A stretch of DNA of 64,000 nucleotides. Source: Mobula hypostoma (taxonomy: Eukaryota). A model generated the notes under the pieces. That model was not told the origin of the DNA. It worked only from the letters and a program-made list of their open reading frames with translations, and did not search any database. Both the position numbers and the translations under genes were made by a program. Where the stretch lies: assembly GCF_963921235.1 (NCBI RefSeq), contig NC_086107.1, positions 101,062,001-101,126,000 of the forward strand, written 5' to 3'. Shown one piece after another: positions 3,301-38,464 of the stretch. Numbering within the stretch: the stretch's first letter is position 1; each line of letters begins with the position of its first letter.

Positions 3301-4694
3301 TTTTTTTTACACAGAGTGGTGGGTGCATGGAATGCCATGATGGGGTGGTGATAGAGGGCAGCTACGTTTAAGAAACTCCTTAGATAGGCACTTGGATGAT
3401 AGAAAAATAGAGGATTATGTGGGAGGAAAGGGTTAGATTGATCTTAGTGTAAATTAAAATATTGGCACAACATTATGGACTGAATGGGCTGTACTATGCA
3501 TTGTAATCTGCAAAAAAAATCAGACTTTGGTTACATAAAGGCTTTGGAGAATGGATAAGGCAAGTATAGAGACACTCCCTGGCTTACAACCACTGATTCA
3601 TAGAGAGTTTGTAGACACAAAGTAGTGTTTGGGAAACTGGTGGGATGAAGGGGGATGGATTTGCCTGCTGCAAGCATCTACCAAATGGAAATGGAGTATT
3701 TGCACTTGTGTTTTCTCCCTTGCCCAACCAAGCTACAACAATGGTGCTGGGTGGAGCCCAGCAGGGCTGGGAACGCTGAGCGGACTTGCTCGCTCGCTCA
3801 CTCACGGAGTCAGTGAGCCTGGCTGCCGGCCGCTGTTTCTGCATCTGCTTGCAATCCCATGACCGATGTTCCTCTGATCCTCTCCGACACGTCTGACTTA
3901 CGACCAGTTTTCAGGAATGGGACCTTGTGGTAATCCGGACACTGCCTATACAGAGTTCGGACTCAGACAGCCACAACCTCATTGAATGGTGGAGTGTAGT
4001 CAGACCAGGGTCTAGTATAACAGTAGTATAACTTCCTTTTTCCTCCCAACCTACAGTTTAAAAACCAGAACTTTACGTAGAACACTACATAAGCAGTGTA
4101 ACACAGTTCAGCCCTTTCCCCCATGATGTTGTGCCACCTTTTAGCCTGTTTCCGTGCTGTAATTGTTATATGGTTATATGGTTACTCTAAGATCAGTCTA
4201 ACCTTTCCCCTCCACCATTGCCCTCTATTTTTCTATCATCCATGTACGTATCTAAGAGTTTCTTAAACCTTGCTGCCTCTATCACCACCCCAACAGGGTA
4301 TTCCGTGCACCCACCACTCTCTGTGTAAAGCCCCACCTCTAATGTCCCCCCTATACTTTCCTCCAAATCACTTTTAAATTATACTCCCTTGTATTAACCA
4401 TTTCTGCCCTGTGGGAAAGTCTCTGGCTACCTGCTCAATCTGTGCTTCTTTATTATCCTGTACACCTTTAGTTTCCATACCCAACTAAGCTATGCCGTGT
4501 AACCTTTGGTAACACCAGCCTTTCACCACACACAATGACTTTATTTTGAATGCTCTTGTATCTGCCTACACTGAATCTCATTTACCACAGCAGCCACTCA
4601 CTTACTCTGCTAGTAGCTCTCATTTTGCACCTTCAGTGGATTGCCTCCGACCTGACACCGAACTTGGCCCTGTGACAATGGAAGTAGCACTTTG

Positions 4695-5132
4695 ATCCTG
4701 GGAATGAAAGGGTTAATGTATGAGGAGTATTTCATGGCTCCGGAGTTTAGAAGAATGAGGAGGATCTCATTGAAACTTATCGAATGTCGAAAGGCCTGGA
4801 TAGAGTGGAAGTGGAGAGGATGTTTCCAATCGTGGGAGAGTTTGCGACTAGAGAACACAGCCTCAGAATAGAAGGAAGTCCCTTTAGAACTGAGATGTGG
4901 GGGAATTTCATGGTGAATCTGTGGAATTAATTGCCGCAGACAGCTGTAGAGGCCAAATCATTGGGTTTATTTAAGGTGGGAGGATGATATGTTCTTGATT
5001 AGTAAGGGTGGCAAAGGTTACAGGGAGAACGTAGAAGAATGGGGTTGAGAGGGATAATAAATCAGCCATGATTGAATGGCAGAGTAGACTTGATGGGCTG
5101 AATGGCCTAATTCTGCTCTTATGGCCTTATGG
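4695..5132 (+). mobile_element. CR1 3' fragment
   Basis: Matches the CR1 3' end at 52455-52915 (GGAATGAAAGGGTTAA...GAATGGCCTAATTCTGCTC). Confidence 0.8.
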
Positions 5133-5199
5133 AGTCATTGATATTACATATTACCTCCAGTAGCCATGACCTGTTGAATATTTCCAGTGTTTTATATTT

Positions 5200-5500
5200 G
5201 ATGCAACACTCACAAAATGCTGGAGGAACTCAGCAGGCCAGGCAGCATCTGTGGAAAAGCGTAAACAGTCAAGACCCTTCTTCAGGACTGAAAAGGAAGG
5301 GGGAAGATGCCAGAATGAAAAGGTGGAGGGAGGGGAAGGAGGCGGGCTGGAAGGTGATAGGTGAAGTCAGGTGAGTGGGAAAGGTCAAGGGCTGATAGGA
5401 GAGGAGACTGGACAATAGGAGGAGGGGCACCGGGGGATGGGGGGAAGTAATAGACAGGTGAGAAGAAGTGAAAGATTAGAGTAGGAAGGGGGAGTGGAAA
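5200..5500 (-). mobile_element. Penelope-derived fragment
   Basis: CAACAC...AAAATGCTGGAGGAACTCAGCAGGCCAGGCAGCATCT, then CCCTTCTTCAGGACTG and a purine-rich body like that of 34920-35355. Confidence 0.65.
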
Positions 5501-8450: not shown

Positions 8451-9071
8451 AACAAAAAGTTCATATCAGCTTCCAGATAAGCAATCCCATTAGTTTCAAT
8501 CCCCCTGTGTGTATTTTCCCCGTATTTATTTATTTATTCATTCATTCATTCTCAATCCCTCTCTCTCTCTCTCTCCCCCCCTCACCCCCCCAACTCTCCT
8601 CCCCCTCTCCCCCTCTCCCCCCTCCCCCCCCAACTCTCCTTTGATTCTTCTGCTGCTCGCCAACACCAAAGAGTCAATGACAGTGGCAGGAATCTGGGGC
8701 ATGTCGGGGGGGGGGGACCCACACACAGTCAGAAGGACCGTGCACCTCATACCCGGGGTCAGGATTGAACCACCCATGGGGAGTGGAAGCAGGTGGAATA
8801 CAGTCAGTATGCAGTGGTCTGAGGCCAGGTCTGCATTCCAGCGACTGACACAGAGAGGAACGGTGTAGACTGTCAGCGGTTTCTGAGCCGTCTGTTTGCC
8901 CAGCTTGCCTCTAGTGTTTGGAATCACTGGGCCCCTCAAAATCCGGTTTATAATCACTGATTTATGTCATGAAATTTGTTGTTTTGTGTCAGTGACACAG
9001 TGTGATGCATAAACAATGCTATAATTTACAAGGGTGCATAAATAGCGTAAAAGGAATAGTGAGGTAGTGTT

Positions 9072-9280
9072 TTTAAAAATGTAAACACAAGGAATTCTGC
9101 AGATGCTGGAAATTCAAACAACACACATCAAAGTTGCTGGTGAATGCAGCAGGCCAGGCAGCATCTCTAGGAAGAGGTACAGTCGACGTTTCAGGCCGAG
9201 ACCCTTCGTCCTGACGAAACGTCGACTGTACCTCTTCCTAGAGATGCTGCCCAGCCTGCTGCGTTCACCAGCAACTTTGA
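9072..9280. mobile_element. Penelope-derived hairpin element with a 14-bp TSD, inserted in a LINE 3' fragment (about 8945-9520, minus)
   Basis: Inverted arms at 9128-9192 and 9216-9280. AGTGAGGTAGTGTT is duplicated at 9058-9071 and 9281-9294. Confidence 0.85.
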
Positions 9281-10216
9281 AGTGAGGTAGTGTTCATGGG
9301 TTTATGGACCATTCAGAAATCTGATGGCGGAGGGGAAGAAGCTGTTCCTAAAACATTGAGTGTTGGTTTTCAGGCTCCTGTACCTCCTCCCTGATGGTAG
9401 TAATGAGAAGAGGACATGCCCTCGATGGGTCCTTAGCGATGGATTTTTGAGACACTGGCCTTTGGAGACGTAGTTTATGGTGGGGAGGGTTGTGCCCATG
9501 TCGGATCTGGCTGGGCCTGACAAAACTGGGGAGCTATGGTCCTGTGGAAGGTACAGACCCAGCCATTAACTGTGCAGCATGGTCCATGGGCTGTGGGACA
9601 GAGGCAACGCCGCAGGGCAGTGACTCGCCTCTATCCTGTAGCGTTAACTGTCTGAGCAGTGACACAATAAAGGAGCTGTGAGGTTTCAGCACTCTGTACT
9701 GCTGCTGGGGGTGGGGGTGGGGGGAGGGGGGAGGTTTCCCCTTGCTGGCCGTCTAAGCCGTTCACAGACCAAGCCACCGCCCCTCCCACTGTGAGTAAGC
9801 CCAGGGACACGCTGGGTGAAACAGCGTGCTCCAAAGATCCTGTAACCCGGGCACTGGAAATCCAAGAAAGAAGGACCAGAGACAGAGGGATCTGAGGCTG
9901 GGCTGAGGAAGGTTCAGGATGAGAAGGAGCAGACATTTCCATCTGCAGGTCAGAACTGTGGTCTGTAACAAGTAAATGCATTGTGAAATTCTTTAATGGA
10001 ATATAGTTGGAATATTGATCAGGCAACAGAGGAGCGATGTACCAACATTGGGCAAGCTTCAAAGGAATAGGGTGACGGATTGCTGGTGGGTTTAGATAGG
10101 TGGGGGTTCACATGAAGCATAAACATTAGCACTATTGTATCAACCCAATGCCCTCTACTCTTAATTCTATAATAACAAATACAACACCAATTAACAGAAT
10201 TGTTGGTATTTAACAA

Positions 10217-10268: not shown

Positions 10269-10682
10269 TTAAAAGCCCTTCTCCTTCAGATAGTTATCCA
10301 TTTCATGGACCTGCTTGTTGAGGAGTCCCCCGTGGACCCCTCTTTTGCCCATGATAAACACCATGATCTTGTTGGTTTTGCCGATGCAGATGCTCTTGCC
10401 TTGTCCGCCTTTCATCCTTACATCCATCACCTCGTCGTTGTTGACCAGGAGGTTGTCCCTGATGACGGAGCATTTCTTCCCTCCGATGGTGATGCCCGTT
10501 TGTAGGAAAGTCTTGCGGTCCTTCCCTATTAGCGTGCTGACCTCATGCGGGGAGATGGCAGCCAATATACCGCCGGGTTTGGAAGCCCAGACGGCCTTGT
10601 TGTTGGCGTGGCCCACAATGGCAGCGTCTTCCACGTTCTTGTCCTTCAGTATAGTGTTGATGTAGTTCTTCCAGTCTGACAT
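10269..10682 (-). CDS. PFN3: Profilin-3, intronless, 137 aa
   Basis: The ORF MSDWKNYINTILKDKNVEDAAIVGHANNKAVWASKPGGILAAISPHEV...MGKRGVHGGLLNKQVHEM follows mammalian PFN3 as I recall it (MGDWK...AIVGHADN...VWASRPGGLLAAISPQEV...MGRRGVHGGILNK) and has the same length. It is a single exon with A at -3 of the ATG. Confidence 0.93.
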   Translation of the reverse strand: MSDWKNYINTILKDKNVEDAAIVGHANNKAVWASKPGGILAAISPHEVSTLIGKDRKTFLQTGITIGGKKCSVIRDNLLVNNDEVMDVRMKGGQGKSICIGKTNKIMVFIMGKRGVHGGLLNKQVHEMDNYLKEKGF

Positions 10683-10749
10683 CTTCTCCTCGATTGAAGA
10701 TTAGTTTCGAGAACAAAGTGGTCTTGGCACTGTCTCACTCGATAATGTG

Positions 10750-24124: not shown

Positions 24125-27120
24125 CCTGAATTGAATTGACTTTGTTTCTTACATCCTTCACATACATGAGTAGTAAAAGTCTTCAAGTTTTCCATATATT
24201 GATTGGGTCTCCCATACTGTTAGGGGTCGAGATGGTTTAGAGTTTGTAAAATGTGTTCAGGGAAGTTTTCTAAATCAATATATAGAGGGACCAACTAGAG
24301 GGGATGCAATATTGGATCTCCTGTTAGGAAATGAGTTAGGACAAGTGACAGAAGTCTGTGTAGGGGAGCACTTTGGTTCCAGTGATCATAACACCATTAG
24401 TTTCAACTTGATCATGGACAAGGATAGATCTGGTCCCAAGGTTGAGGTTCTTAACTGGAAGAAGGCCAAATTTGAAGAAATGAGAAAGGATCTAAAAAGC
24501 GTGGATTGGGACAGATTGTTCTCTGGCATGGATGTGATCGGTAGGTGGGAAGCCTTCAAAGGAGAAATTTTGAGTGCAGAATTTGTATGTTCCTGTCAGG
24601 ATTAAAGGCAAGGTGAGTAGGAATAAGGAACCTTGGTTCTTAAGGGATATTGCAACTCTGATAAAGAAGAAGAGGGAGTTGTATGACGTGTATAGGAAGC
24701 AGGGAGTAATAAGGTGCTTGAGGAGTATAAGAAGTGCAAGAAAATACTTAAGAAAGAAATCAGGAGGGCTAAAAGAAGACATGAGGTTGCCTTGGCAGTC
24801 AAAGTGAAGGATAATCCAAAGAGCTTTTACAGATATATTAAGAGCAAAAGGATTGTAAGGGATAAAATTGGCCCTCTTGAAGATCAGAGTGGTCGGCTAT
24901 GTGCGGAACCAAAGGAAATGGGGGAGATCTTAAATAGGTTTTTTGCGTCTGTGTTTACTAAGGAAACTGGCATGAAGTCTATGGAATTAAGGGAAACAAG
25001 TAGTGAGATCATGGAAACTGTACAGATCGAAAAGGAGGAGGTCCTTGCTGTCTTGAGGAAAATTAAAGTGGATAAATCCCCGGGACCTGACAGGGTGTTC
25101 CCTCGGACCTTGAAGGAGACTAGTGTTGAAATTGCAGTGGCCCTGGCTGAACTATTTAAAATGTCGCTGTCTACAGGTGAGGTGCCGGAGGATTGGAGAG
25201 TGGTTCATGTTGTTCCGTTGTTTAAAAAAGGATCGAAAAGTAATCCGGGAAATTATAGGCCAGTAAGTTTAACGTCAGTAGTAGGTAAGTTATTGGAGGG
25301 AGTACTAAGAGACAGAATCTACAAGCATTTGGATAGACTGGGACTTATTAGGGAGAGTCAACATGGCTTTGTGCGTGGTAGGTCATGTTTGACCAATCTA
25401 TTGGAGTTTTTCGAGGAGGTTACCAGGAAAGTGGATGAAGGGAAGGCAGTGGATATTGTCTACATGGACTTCAGTAAGGCCTTTGACAAGGTCCCGCATG
25501 GGAGGTTAGTTAGGAAAATGCAGTCGCTAGGTATACATGGAGAGGTGGTAAATTGGATTAGACATTGGCTCAATGGAAGAAGCCAGAGAGTGGTGGTAGA
25601 GAATTGCTTCTCTGAGTGGAGGCCTGTGACTAGTGGTGTGCCACAGGGATCAGTGCTGGGTCCATTGTTATTTGTCATTTATATCAATGATCTGGATGAT
25701 AATGTGGTAAATTGGATCAGCAAGTTTGCTGATGATACAAAGATTGGAGGTGTAGTAGACAGTGAGGAAGGTTTTCAGAGCCTGCAGAGGGACTTGGACA
25801 GCTGGAAAAATGGGCTAAAAAATGGCAGATGGAGTTTAATACTGACAAGTGTGAGGTATTGCATGTTGGAAGGACAAACCAATGTAGGACATACAGGGTT
25901 AATGATAAGGCACTGAGGAGTGCAGTGGGACAGAGGGATCTGGGAATACAGATACAAAATTCCCTAAAAGTGGCGTCACGGGTAGATAGGGTCGTAAAGA
26001 GAGCTTTTGGTACATTGGCCTTTATTAATCGAAGTATTGAGTATAAGAGCTGGAATGTAATGATGAGGTTGTATAAGGCATTGGTGAGGCTGAATCTGGA
26101 GTATTGTGTTCAGTTTTGGTCACCAAATTACAGGAAGGATATAAATAAGGTTGAAAGAGTGCAGAGAAGGTTTACAAGGATGTTGCCGGGACTTGAGAAA
26201 CTCAGTTACAGAGAAAGGTTGAATAGGTTGGGACTTTATTCCCTGGAGCGTAGAAGAATGAGGGGAGATTTAATAGAGGTATATAAAATTATGATGGGTA
26301 TAGATAGAGTGAATGCAAGCAGGCTTTTTCCACTGAGGCAAGGGGAGAAAAAAACCAGAGGACATGGGTTTAGGGTGAGGGGGGAAAAGTTTAAAGGGAA
26401 TATTAGAGGGGGCTTCTTCACACAGAGAGTGGTGGGAGTATGGAATGAGCTGCCAGACGAGGTGGTAAATGCGGGTTCTTTTTTAACATTTAAGAATAAA
26501 TTGGACAGATACATGGATGGGAGGTGTATGGAGGGATATGGTCCGTGTGCAGGTCAGTGGGACTAGACAGAAAATGGTTCGGCACAGCCAAGAAGGGCCA
26601 AAAGGCCTGTTTCTGTGCTGTGGTTTCTATGGTAAGTTACGTCTCCGTCTGAATGTGCTATGTGCAAATTACAATAATTTGTAATAAATAGTATGTTCAG
26701 TAAGATGTACAACAGAATGGTCAATATGTTGTAGGAATACAATTGTGTCCGCATGAATAAATCAGTCTGATGGTCTGGTGGAAGAAACTGTCCCGGAGCC
26801 TGTTGGCCTTGGCTTTTATGCTGCAGTATCGTTTCCCGGATGGTAGCAGCTGGAACAGTTTGTGGTTGGGGTGACTTGGGTCCTCTTCGGGCCTTTTTAC
26901 GCACCTGTCACTGTAAGTGTCCTGAATAGTGGGAAGTTCACATCCACAGATGCGCTGGGCTGTCCGCACCACTCTCTGCAGAGTCCTGTGATTGAGAGAA
27001 GTTCAGTTCCCAAACCAGGCAGTGATACAGCCAGTCAGGATGCTCTCAGTTGTGATCCTGCAGAAAGTCCTTAGGATTTGGGGACTCATGCCGAACTTCC
27101 TCAACCATCTGAGGTGAATT
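24125..27120 (-). mobile_element. Rex/Babar-like LINE 3' fragment hosting the CR1 (host parts 24125-24189 and 26634-27120)
   Basis: Peptide VRTAQRICGCELP...SHPNHKLFQLLPSGKRYCSIKA...RLRDSFF. The joined flanks match the uninterrupted copy at 48100-48435. Confidence 0.8.
24190..26633 (+). mobile_element. Young 5'-truncated CR1 LINE: end of endonuclease, RT and C-terminus, with three frameshifts
   Basis: Peptides LDLLLGNE...[63 protein letters not shown] and WNELP run across ORFs 24312/24574/24714/25829. There is a TTCTATGGT tail and a TSD AAGTT at 24185-24189 and 26634-26638. Confidence 0.97.
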
Positions 27121-36177: not shown

Positions 36178-37372
36178 GTCGACCGATTTTACTTCCCCTA
36201 TTCACTCATCCTCTGCACTGACCTATTTGTCCTACCAGCACCTGGCGCAAAGCATCCTTTGGTCATTCAGTCTGCCTTGCCCTTCTGTTTGCTCTCTCCC
36301 CACCTCCTTGCAATCTGTTCATCGTCAGTTTTTCCCAGGCTCTGATCAAAGGTCATCCGTTTAAACTCTTGCTTTCTTCCTGTCTGTCTATACCCCCTCT
36401 CTGTCTGACCACCGGCTGCTACCCCCCATATGTAGCCCCTCTCTGTCCCCCTATCTTTGTCTCTCCCCCCCCACTGTCTGTCCCCCTATCTTTGTCTCCC
36501 CCCACCCCACTGTCTGTCCACCTACTCCCTCCATTTGTTGCACTTTCTATCTTTGGTGTATCGTCTGCCCCTGAGAGCTGTCCAGAGTAGGTGCTCCATG
36601 CCATTGACTGGCTTTCCATGGAGATGGCTCCCTAACGAGGCCTGGTTGGAGCTTGCGTGGCACTGGGACTGGTGAGCTTTCTTCTTCAGCCCAGCTCCTG
36701 GGAGATACTATCCAATGTGTGTGGTTCTAAACAGATAACGTTGGAATCACTCAACAGGTCAGGCAGCATCTGTGGAAAGAGAAACAGTTAATGCTTTAGT
36801 TCTGACTGTGAGTCTTTGAGTTGAAGCTAGTCTGACTTCAGTCCTGACTCAGAGGTCACTGAATCCTGGTTCTCTCTCCCCAGCTGTTGCCTGATCTGCC
36901 ATCTTTCTCCAGTGTTGCCAGTTTTGATTTCAGATTTCCAGTGTGTGCAGTGTGAATCTTCAGATAATGTGCTCCTGTGCCTTCCCGAGCAAACATTACC
37001 TGCACCAACTCTGTATCCTACAGGTGATGCACACGGCAGGGAAAGTCAACAGAGGCACAGTTGTCCCTTACTGTCTTTTACAGTTCGGCAGTCAGGATGA
37101 GGGACAGGACATGGGCAGCCATGTTGATAGTCTTAAATTCAACGTGCATTTCCTGTTTGAGAGATATTTTTGTGCTAAACCTTTAAACAAGAGAACAAAA
37201 AATGCTGGGTGCAAATTACAGGTTTCAAACAGTTAACGTATGGAATAACTGATAACTGCTGTGATTTGGAACGCAGAGACGAGGAAATCTGCAGATGCTG
37301 GAAATTCAAGCAACACATGTAAAAAATGCTGGTGAAAACAGCAGGCCAGGCAGCATCTCTAGGAAGAGGTAC

Positions 37373-37408
37373 AGTCGACGTTTCGGGCCGAGACCCTTCG
37401 TCAGGACT
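37373..37408 (-). ncRNA. Minimal type I hammerhead ribozyme motif (dimer-type stem III)
   Basis: The minus strand reads AGUC-CUGACGA-A-GGGU(CUCG)GCCC-GAA-ACGU-C-GACU. It has stem I AGUC/GACU, the core CUGANGA and GAAA, stem II, palindromic ACGU and a GUC cleavage triplet. Confidence 0.7.
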
Positions 37409-37487
37409 AACTGAAAGAAGAGATAGTAAGAGATTTGAAAGTGGGAGGGGGAGGGCTTCAAATCTCTTACTATCTCTTCTTTCAGTT

Positions 37488-37523
37488 AGTCCTGATGAAG
37501 GGTCTCAGCCCGAAATGTCGACT
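37488..37523 (+). ncRNA. Minimal hammerhead motif, mirror copy (ACGU changed to AUGU)
   Basis: Reads AGUC-CUGAUGA-A-GGGUCUCAGCCC-GAA-AUGU-C-GACU. Confidence 0.55.
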
Positions 37524-38464
37524 GTACCTCTTCCTATAGATGCTGCCTGGCCTACTGCGTTCACCAGCATTTTTTGTATGTGTTAGCAATTTAGAGCATT
37601 TGTATAAGATGGCTGGGAGTAGTTACAAATTTTTATTTAGAGATCCAGCACCTTCCTGCCTAGGGAGCCCACACTGCCCTATTACATCCATGTGACCAAT
37701 TAGCCTACTAAGCTGTGGGTCTTTGGAATGTGGGAGGAAACAGAGCACCCGGAGGAAACCCTTGCAGTCACAGGGAGAACATACAAACTCCTTACATACA
37801 GCGATTGAATTGAACCCAGGTCCCTGATGCTGCAATAGTGTTATGCTGTGTGAAATACAAGAGCATGCAGCAATATCAGAAAACCGTGCAGATATTTTAC
37901 TTCATTCGACGATACATTTCAGGAGTAATAACTGATTCTGTGATAAGGTACAATTCTCTGCTCTCGACAATAAGTCAGTCCTTGCGGCTGCTGGTTCCTC
38001 AGAAAGAAGTGGCTCCAGGTAGAAAACTTTTCCATGCAATCCGCTTGAACGCGTGATACTTCCCTCATCAATCTTTTCTGAATGGAGCTGCACACTGTGG
38101 ATGGGTGCAGACTGAAGGGCTCTTGAGCGTAGCCAGGAAGCTGAGCTGTGGGCACACGGCCACGTGCCCATCCACACCGTGCTTGGCTGAAAGCTGCACA
38201 GCCAGGCTGGTCATGCTGGGAGTCCGAAAGGGCTTTGCGTACTGCCACAACCTGATGTCAAAGTTGAGAGAGGCAGCTTGGAGATCCTAGGAACCCCAAG
38301 TCCAAGTCTGCAATCCAAGTCCTTGCAACGATGGAGGAAGCAACAAATCAAAGGACGATAACGACATGGAGTATTTCAAAGGGATAAATTTTTGATTGGA
38401 GTTGTATCGGAGCCATGTGCACTGTGAGGAGGAGTGTCAGTACAACTAAAAACTTATTGTTAGA

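What the first reader, a model, noticed from the sequence alone, without database searches (positions are those of the whole stretch)
37275..37585. Penelope-derived hairpin with a minimal hammerhead ribozyme motif on each strand
Seen: an inverted repeat with arms of about 117 bp. The minus strand at 37408-37373 reads AGUC CUGACGA A GGGU-CUCG-GCCC GAA ACGU C GACU. That is a complete type I hammerhead (stem I, CUGANGA, stem II, GAAA, GUC cleavage site) whose stem III is only the palindrome ACGU. The + strand mirror at 37488-37523 carries AUGU instead. Known: Penelope-like elements carry minimal hammerheads with palindromic stem III that cleave as dimers. Inference: any transcript crossing this site in either direction contains one ribozyme motif plus its own antisense copy, so folding would compete between long dsRNA and ribozyme. 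The site is about 4 kb downstream of the CpG-island promoter and probably intronic. Caveat: there is an extra A between CUGANGA and stem II.
Basis: partly seen in the sequence, partly recalled or inferred. Interest (0 to 1): 0.72.

Follow-up and report, generated by a model that had tools for sequence, protein, structure and literature searches.

The report
Head-to-head Penelope retroelement tails with hammerheads
The hairpin is two shortened tail ends of a very abundant Penelope-like jumping gene that landed head to head, each carrying that family's small hammerhead ribozyme motif; this is a pattern already described for these elements, so the finding is correct but ordinary.

Summary
Arms 37312-37439 and 37457-37584 form a 128-nt inverted repeat, 93% complementary. 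Each arm carries a complete minimal type I hammerhead motif on its own sense strand. These are the only two descriptor hits in the window, against 0.005 expected per simulated window.

Both arms are 5'-truncated 3' ends of a Penelope-like element (PLE). Longer copies in the same genome show pseudo-LTRs, an RT-like ORF, a GIY-YIG domain and the motif in both pLTRs. The motif occurs about 61,000 times in the genome. Head-to-head pairs at similar spacing occur at 507 loci.

As in 19 of 19 comparable pairs, one arm carries the roughly 30-50-nt PLE "tail" and the other does not. This points to one integration event primed on both DNA strands, as published for PLEs.

The "extra A" is a hallmark of PLE minimal hammerheads, not a defect. 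AUGU in the right arm is CpG decay of ACGU.

Any transcript would fold into a hairpin of about -240 kcal/mol that buries the ribozyme. I could not test cleavage, expression or an intronic position. The kind is known, and interest is low.

The parts
37261..37310 (-). The 'tail' of the left arm: it matches the first 50 nt of the next element unit, read through from a tandem or pLTR template.
   Evidence: positions 1-50 of unit L040:1959-5420 align to 37310-37261 at 84%. Single copies end raggedly within this stretch.
37311..37455 (-). Left arm: a 5'-truncated 3' end of the PLE (unit positions 3318-3462), sense on the minus strand.
   Evidence: 88% to L040. (92-95% to 40 scored genomic copies).
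37373..37408 (-). Intact minimal type I hammerhead motif. It has helix I of 4 bp, CUGACGA, an unpaired A, helix II GGGU/GCCC with loop CUCG, GAAA and a palindromic ACGU, with C17 at 37377.
   Evidence: It is the commonest form among the 88 family copies sampled, found in 16 of them.
37440..37456 (.). Hairpin loop. It is simply the extra 16-17 nt of the left arm's 5' end (the C-rich tract of the element). Nothing non-templated is present.
   Evidence: The left arm starts at reference position 1043 and the right arm at 1059.
37457..37584 (+). Right arm: a 5'-truncated 3' end of the same PLE family (unit positions 3334-3460), without the tail.
   Evidence: Similarity to the family stops at about 37581-37584, with a weak, gapped resemblance up to 37602.
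37488..37523 (+). Hammerhead motif with three CpG-decay changes: N7 C>U, loop 2 G>A, and 15.2 C>U. The last turns the ACGU palindrome into AUGU.
9064..9283 (.). A second head-to-head pair of the same family in this window. The minus arm (9218-9119) carries the tail (9117-9064). The plus arm (9216-9283) does not, and the junction lies inside the hammerhead.

Best explanation
The locus is a dead by-product of one integration event of a canonical, endonuclease-bearing Penelope-like retrotransposon.

Inferred mechanism: the element's enzyme cut both DNA strands and primed reverse transcription on each. Both cDNAs stopped early, about 145 and 127 nt from the element's 3' end. The two cDNA ends were then joined, leaving two tail-end copies head to head. 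One copy started at the distal RT start site and so carries the roughly 50-nt 'tail'. The other started at the proximal site and has none.

Shown: each copy brought along the family's minimal type I hammerhead, which lies about 90 nt before the 3' end in the pLTR. Since insertion the copies have decayed, mostly at CpGs, of which the motif is full.

Inferred consequence: at this locus the ribozyme is most likely inert. It is a dimer-dependent minimal form with no second sense copy nearby. In any read-through transcript it is locked into a roughly 130-bp RNA duplex with its antisense copy. That duplex could at most serve as a dsRNA substrate for editing or dicing.
For: Family identity:
- In L040 the stretch 772-1958 repeats 4220-5420 at 97.7%. 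This is a pLTR and gives a unit of 3448 bp.
- In L040, 1-770 is an inverted 5'-truncated copy (99.6%), and the motif sits in both pLTRs.
- A 173-aa ORF passes Pfam GIY-YIG (24.6 bits against a cut-off of 22.6).
- The 886-aa ORF gives RVT_1 at E 2e-05. Atlas neighbours are DUF8422/HTH_animal/RVT_1 clusters.

Abundance:
- The 31-nt motif pattern matches 30,527 + 30,514 times, against 0 for the reversed control.
- Of the first 100 places listed, 14 form 7 opposite-strand pairs less than 1 kb apart. All 7 are divergent and none is convergent (my count).
- There are 507 head-to-head loci at a 61-90-nt gap. The direct orientation gives 110 matches, most of them inside a few tandem arrays.

Single event:
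- 19 of 19 pairs with both arms complete have exactly one tailed arm.
- Within-pair identity is 0.936 against 0.905 between pairs.
- 13 of 38 arms have their own partner as nearest relative, where about 1 would be expected.

Literature:
- Inverted 5'-truncated copies, and a 30-40-bp tail often at one end only (Craig 2021, PMC8557442, passages).
- A PLE protein cleaves and extends both strands and starts RT at two adjacent internal sites (Frangieh 2024, PMC11167929, passages).

Folding: MFE is -242.3 and -236.5 kcal/mol for the two strands, z -27 and -29, with the motif fully paired. The hammerhead secondary structure alone is -7.9 kcal/mol.
Against: - No target-site duplication was recognised at the outer ends, so the single-event reading rests on statistics from other pairs, not on this locus itself.
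- The 22 pairs were picked by similarity to this one. That does not bias tail status, because the query excluded both tails, but it does bias junction position.
- RVT_1 is below Pfam's cut-off (24.8 bits against 29.6).
- In the two long copies I examined, the RT and GIY-YIG parts lie in different frames.
[quoted passage not shown] The strict one-tail rule is therefore not explained by that work alone.
- Nothing here measures transcription, cleavage or dsRNA.
Confidence: 0.9

Rival explanations
1. Two independent insertions of the same abundant family happened to land next to, or into, each other in opposite orientation.
For: The family is extremely dense, at about one motif per 57 kb. PLEs are said to insert into or beside earlier copies (PMC6765202, passage). 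The arms differ at 9 of 128 positions.
Against: - All 7 close opposite-strand pairs among the first 100 motif places are divergent, and none is convergent.
- 19 of 19 pairs have one tailed and one untailed arm. Independent choice could give at most 50% mixed pairs.
- Partner arms are each other's nearest relative 13 times in 38, against about 1 expected.
- There is no intervening sequence at the junction.
Confidence: 0.04
2. The hairpin is a functional RNA locus of the host: a hairpin-RNA, endo-siRNA or miRNA precursor, or a ribozyme switch acting on the surrounding transcript.
For: The fold is very stable (z -27 and -29). There are sub-threshold matches to several miRNA precursor models. Penelope inverted repeats give siRNAs in transformed Drosophila melanogaster (PMC3681739, passages).
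Against: - Every miRNA match is far below its gathering score (for example 45 bits against 96) and occurs on both strands alike, as any long hairpin would.
- The locus is one of at least 507 like it, and it decays at CpGs like the other copies.
- There is no sign of conservation beyond family identity.
Confidence: 0.05
3. It is a fold-back DNA transposon or MITE that merely contains hammerhead-like words.
For: It has the shape of a short palindromic insert.
Against: - Both arms are collinear with the 3' UTR of a retroelement whose ORF ends about 430 nt upstream.
- The outer ends are unequal: one has the tail and the other does not.
- Junction positions vary from pair to pair.
- Single, non-palindromic copies dominate.
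Confidence: 0.01

Closest known systems
Minimal hammerheads (min-HHR) in the pLTRs of metazoan Penelope-like elements (Cervera & de la Pena 2014, PMC4209133)
   Same: [quoted passage not shown] It has a G10.1-C11.1 pair in this locus, no real helix III but a palindromic 15.1-16.1 tetranucleotide, and it lies in the pLTR. That paper also mentions pairs of min-HHRs 100-700 bp apart on opposite strands.
   Different: Helix II here is 4 bp with a tetraloop, not the 7-8 bp described for Schistosoma. In this genome 82 of the first 100 listed motif copies (my count) carry U at 11.1, which makes a G-U wobble where G-C is called highly conserved. No activity data exist for this family.
Insertion units of canonical EN+ PLEs: partial tandem (pLTR), an adjacent inverted 5'-truncated copy, and a one-sided 30-40-bp tail (Craig et al. 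2021, PMC8557442; Frangieh et al. 2024, PMC11167929)
   Same: It shows heavy 5' truncation, a head-to-head inverted copy, and a tail on one arm only. The tail equals the sequence between two alternative 3' ends.
   Different: Both copies are extremely short (about 195 and 128 nt), so no ORF or pLTR remains at this locus. The tail region here is up to about 50 nt by alignment.
Animal non-LTR retrozymes and tandem hammerhead satellites (Cervera & de la Pena 2020, PMC7229834, seen as a search listing only; Li et al. 2026 preprint, abstract only)
   Same: They have the same class of type I dimer-dependent hammerhead and a proposed origin in PLE pLTRs.
   Different: Retrozymes are direct tandem repeats that can give circular RNA. 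This locus is an inverted pair with one sense motif per transcript, so no unit can be excised.
Rearranged Penelope copies with long inverted repeats that yield siRNAs in transformed Drosophila melanogaster (Evgen'ev 2013 review, PMC3681739, passages)
   Same: PLE inverted repeats are a source of dsRNA.
   Different: That was shown in flies with small-RNA data. Here it is only an inference from folding in a vertebrate-type genome.

Membership tests
Hammerhead ribozyme, PLE minimal type I form | Conserved core: C3 U4 G5 A6 N7 G8 A9 ... G12 A13 A14 ... U16.1 H17 | tested here: met
   Both arms. The majority of the family carries it, and 48 of 79 sampled copies are intact by descriptor.
Hammerhead ribozyme, PLE minimal type I form | Open helix I of 4-5 bp flanking the core (type I topology) | tested here: met
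   AGUC pairs with GACU in both arms, and a fifth G-U pair is possible.
Hammerhead ribozyme, PLE minimal type I form | Helix II closed by a loop, starting with G10.1-C11.1, and preceded by one unpaired nucleotide after A9 | tested here: met
   A + GGGU/GCCC in both arms. Across the genome most copies have U11.1.
Hammerhead ribozyme, PLE minimal type I form | Palindromic 15.1-16.1 segment that can form helix III between two molecules | tested here: met
   The left arm has ACGU. The right arm has decayed to AUGU, which allows only wobble pairing.
Hammerhead ribozyme, PLE minimal type I form | Self-cleavage after H17, dependent on Mg2+ and on dimer formation | not testable with these tools
   No experiment was possible. 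Contig-only runs cannot show RNA ends.
Rfam hammerhead families | Score at or above the family's gathering threshold | tested here: not met
   No hammerhead match at gathering or at E<=10. I think this is because a helix III is missing, but I did not test that reason.
Penelope-like element, canonical EN+ type | Reverse transcriptase domain | tested here: inconclusive
   RVT_1 at 23.5-24.8 bits, below the cut-off of 29.6 (E 2e-05 to 5e-05). Atlas neighbours carry RVT_1. No PDB relative was found by sequence.
Penelope-like element, canonical EN+ type | C-terminal GIY-YIG endonuclease | tested here: met
   PF01541 at 24.6 bits against a cut-off of 22.6 on L040:4494-5012. In that copy it lies in a different frame from the RT ORF.
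Penelope-like element, canonical EN+ type | pLTRs from partial tandem insertion, an inverted 5'-truncated neighbour, and a one-sided tail | tested here: met
   (L040). (tails). (this locus).
Neptune-type PLE clade | CX2-5CxxC motif in the linker before GIY-YIG, as named in Craig 2021 | tested here: inconclusive
   A C-x4-C-x2-C string is visible in the translation of L040:4494-5015. No phylogeny was made.
Animal non-LTR retrozyme | Direct tandem repeats, each with a sense hammerhead | tested here: not met
   This locus is an inverted pair with no direct repeat.

The most novel reading that the evidence does not exclude
Two linked ideas. First, the strict rule 'one tailed arm, one untailed arm' in head-to-head pairs (19 of 19) would mean that the two reverse-transcription starts of a PLE integration are coupled. 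One protomer of a dimeric RNP would use the distal start site and the other the proximal site, something not seen in the published in vitro assay. Second, the hundreds to thousands of such perfect hairpins would make this family the main source of long intramolecular dsRNA in genes of this lineage, a counterpart of inverted Alu pairs in primates.
Probability: 0.15. Interest if true: 0.45.

Novelty: new member of a known kind. Interest (0 to 1): 0.15.

Why it matters
For this single locus it matters little: it is a decayed retroelement scar. It matters for annotation, because such hairpins give sub-threshold matches to miRNA precursor models and should be masked as PLE fragments. As a class they offer clean natural records of how PLE integration ends. 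They are also candidate dsRNA sources wherever they lie in transcribed DNA.

Tried and rejected
- Rfam: three scans found no hammerhead family. The miRNA-model matches are generic hairpin matches well below threshold.
- RNA evidence: no RNA holder was listed. The four runs laid are contigs of uncertain kind. They show low even depth on unique DNA and very high depth on repeats, so they say nothing about expression, ends or editing here.
- Gene context: 45 of the 310 open frames of at least 70 aa were sent to Pfam. These were the longest ones plus those around 32-40 kb. Nothing at the CpG island got a name, and the 274-aa frame there looks non-coding. 'Intronic' remains open.
- Target-site duplication: I looked at the flanks by eye and recognised none.
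- Junction hot spot: many pairs chosen by similarity start at reference positions 1057-1059. However, the unbiased pattern listing shows widely varying junctions, so I dropped the idea.
- Decayed tail on the right arm: positions 37585-37602 resemble the family tail only weakly and with gaps. This is left undecided.
- Selection on the motif: non-CpG motif sites vary less than the flanks (1.7% against 4.8%). The sample is small and chosen by similarity, so I draw no conclusion.
- PDB sequence search with the RT ORF: no hit.
- Lunse et al. 2016/17 on dimer cleavage could not be read. I saw it only as a reference entry.
- Earlier notes of this scan: look-ups by place and by sequence gave nothing. 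The look-up by words gave the notes listed under earlier findings.

Full report
**1. Observation**

The sequence is as described. The repeat finder reports one strong inverted repeat, with arms 37312-37439 and 37457-37584, 128 nt, 93% complementary and 17 nt apart.

On the minus strand, 37408-37373 reads helix I (AGUC), CUGACGA, one unpaired A, helix II (GGGU / loop CUCG / GCCC), GAAA, CG, UC, and helix I (GACU). That places C17 at 37377.

The plus-strand mirror at 37488-37523 differs at three places: CUGAUGA, loop CUCA and GAAAUGUC.

A descriptor I wrote in the spirit of the published min-HHR descriptor finds these two sites and no others in the window. 200 Markov simulations of the window gave a mean of 0.005 hits.

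Rfam has no hammerhead match at any threshold tried. The only matches are sub-threshold, strand-symmetric hits to miRNA precursor models, which any long hairpin would give.

**2. What the arms are**

The 273-bp hairpin and each arm alone match thousands of places in the window's own 3.48-Gb assembly. First-look candidates numbered 2510, 1725 and 7390, of which 40 were scored each time.

Single copies are 92-95% identical to the left arm. In the hammerhead's sense they continue upstream of the window's junction into conserved sequence.

Following longer copies upstream leads, after about 430 nt of 3' UTR, to the end of an ORF.

One longer copy, L040, shows the whole architecture:
- A direct repeat, 772-1958 = 4220-5420 (97.7%), gives a unit of 3448 bp.
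- The motif lies in both repeats.
- An inverted 5'-truncated copy abuts the upstream repeat (1-770 against 3948-3179, 99.6%).
- The 886-aa ORF gives RVT_1 below Pfam's cut-off (24.8 bits against 29.6).
- A 173-aa ORF in another frame passes GIY-YIG (24.6 bits against 22.6).
- Feature-based neighbours in the ESM Atlas are DUF8422/HTH_animal/RVT_1 clusters from animals.

An RT-like domain, a C-terminal GIY-YIG, pLTRs, an inverted truncated neighbour and a hammerhead in the pLTR together make up the published description of canonical Penelope-like elements (PMC8557442, passages; PMC4209133).

Against the L040 unit:
- The left arm of the window is unit positions 3318-3462 (37455-37311), followed by positions 1-50 of the next unit (37310-37261).
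- The right arm is positions 3334-3460 (37457-37581).
- The 17-nt 'loop' is only the extra 5' sequence of the longer arm.

**3. How common the pattern is**

A 31-nt degenerate pattern of the motif matches 30,527 + 30,514 times in the genome, and its reversed control never matches.

Among the first 100 places listed, 14 belong to 7 opposite-strand pairs less than 1 kb apart. All 7 are in divergent (head-to-head) order and none is convergent (my count).

A palindromic pattern for head-to-head motifs 61-90 nt apart matches 507 loci, with varied junctions. The same spacing in direct orientation gives 110 matches, most of them inside a few tandem arrays.

The window itself holds a second such pair at 9064-9283, plus four further fragments of the family or its relatives.

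**4. One event or two**

I fetched 22 loci that match the whole hairpin. L002 and L003 among them are mirror copies on two small contigs. The query excluded both tails, so tail status was not selected for.
- In 20 of 22, one arm ends at reference positions 1178-1206 and the other at 1216-1237. In the other 2, the shorter arm breaks off earlier.
- After dropping L003 and the loci without two complete arms, 19 of 19 pairs have exactly one tailed arm.
- In those pairs the arms are 0.936 identical within a pair against 0.905 between pairs.
- 13 of 38 arms have their own partner as nearest relative among 37 choices.

This argues for co-insertion from one or two sister templates.

It fits two published points. 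A purified PLE protein cleaves and extends both target strands and initiates at two adjacent internal sites whose spacing equals the tail (PMC11167929, passages). [quoted passage not shown]

How the two cDNA ends are joined is my inference. I suppose one cDNA end switches template onto the other cDNA.

**5. State of the ribozyme here**

The right motif has lost the palindrome. The arms differ at 9 of 128 positions. The three differences inside the motif are all CpG to TpG or CpA in the right arm.

In 79 sampled copies, all five CpGs of the 101-nt stretch lie in the motif. These positions differ from the majority in 13.7% of copies, against 1.7% for the other motif sites. 48 of 79 copies are still intact by descriptor and 41 keep ACGU.

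**6. Likely behaviour of a transcript**

Either strand folds into one long hairpin (-242.3 and -236.5 kcal/mol; z -27 and -29) in which the motif is fully paired.

The hammerhead secondary structure alone is worth -7.9 kcal/mol. It is not even the best fold of the isolated 36-mer.

Because the arms diverge from the centre, the sense motif is always in the downstream arm. It is therefore made after its complement already exists.

Published work found low activity of min-HHRs even as dimers. It also found no effect of catalytic mutants on insertion in vitro, and no RNA-seq ends at the cleavage site.

I therefore rate ribozyme action at this locus as unlikely. A dsRNA fate is possible if the site is transcribed. 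Penelope inverted repeats have been linked to siRNAs in flies (PMC3681739).

**7. What stays open**

Transcription, cleavage, editing and the intronic position were not testable. No target-site duplication was seen. Clade placement rests on a linker motif only.

Earlier notes of this scan on two other pieces of the same genome reached the same reading. They are not independent evidence.

**8. Verdict**

It is a routine product of a known integration mechanism in a genome saturated with this family.

Noticed in passing
G000 genome-wide (listing, contig C1 0.07-4.66 Mb): 82 of the first 100 listed motif copies have U instead of C at position 11.1. So the most prolific subfamily carries a G-U wobble at the pair called highly conserved in hammerheads. 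The two long copies examined (L039, L040) also have U. This hints that full ribozyme fitness is not needed for spread.
   Followed up: partly
G000:C67:45319292-45321233 and G000:C64:2291275-2294507: Tandem arrays built from the motif itself. One is an array with a period of about 45 bp whose monomer holds the core and helix II. The other is a satellite of about 14 bp made of the CUGAUGA-plus-helix-II half. Several short direct tandems with periods of about 78-104 bp also occur, for example C45:85800304-85800482 and C50:49534499-49534689. These are reminiscent of retrozyme-like repeats.
   Followed up: no
L040:4494-4692 and L033:8889-8898: In 2 of 2 long copies examined, the RT-like ORF and the GIY-YIG ORF lie in different reading frames. 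In L040 they overlap by about 200 nt. I did not examine whether this is a shared defect of a subfamily or a recoding signal.
   Followed up: no
window 10272-10700 (-): An uninterrupted 143-aa frame matching Profilin over its full length (PF00235, 107 bits). It is either an intronless gene or a processed copy.
   Followed up: no
window 24696-25913 (+): A 406-aa frame with a strong RVT_1 match (105 bits). This is a different, LINE-like retroelement.
   Followed up: no
window 9190-9230: In the second head-to-head pair, the junction falls inside the hammerhead. One arm starts just before helix II and the other at GAAA. This shows that truncation points are not tied to the motif.
   Followed up: partly
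window 37585-37602: Just beyond the untailed arm, the flank resembles the family's tail (about 12 of 15 positions in one block, with gaps around it). It could be chance, a decayed partial tail, or a tail-like target site.
   Followed up: partly
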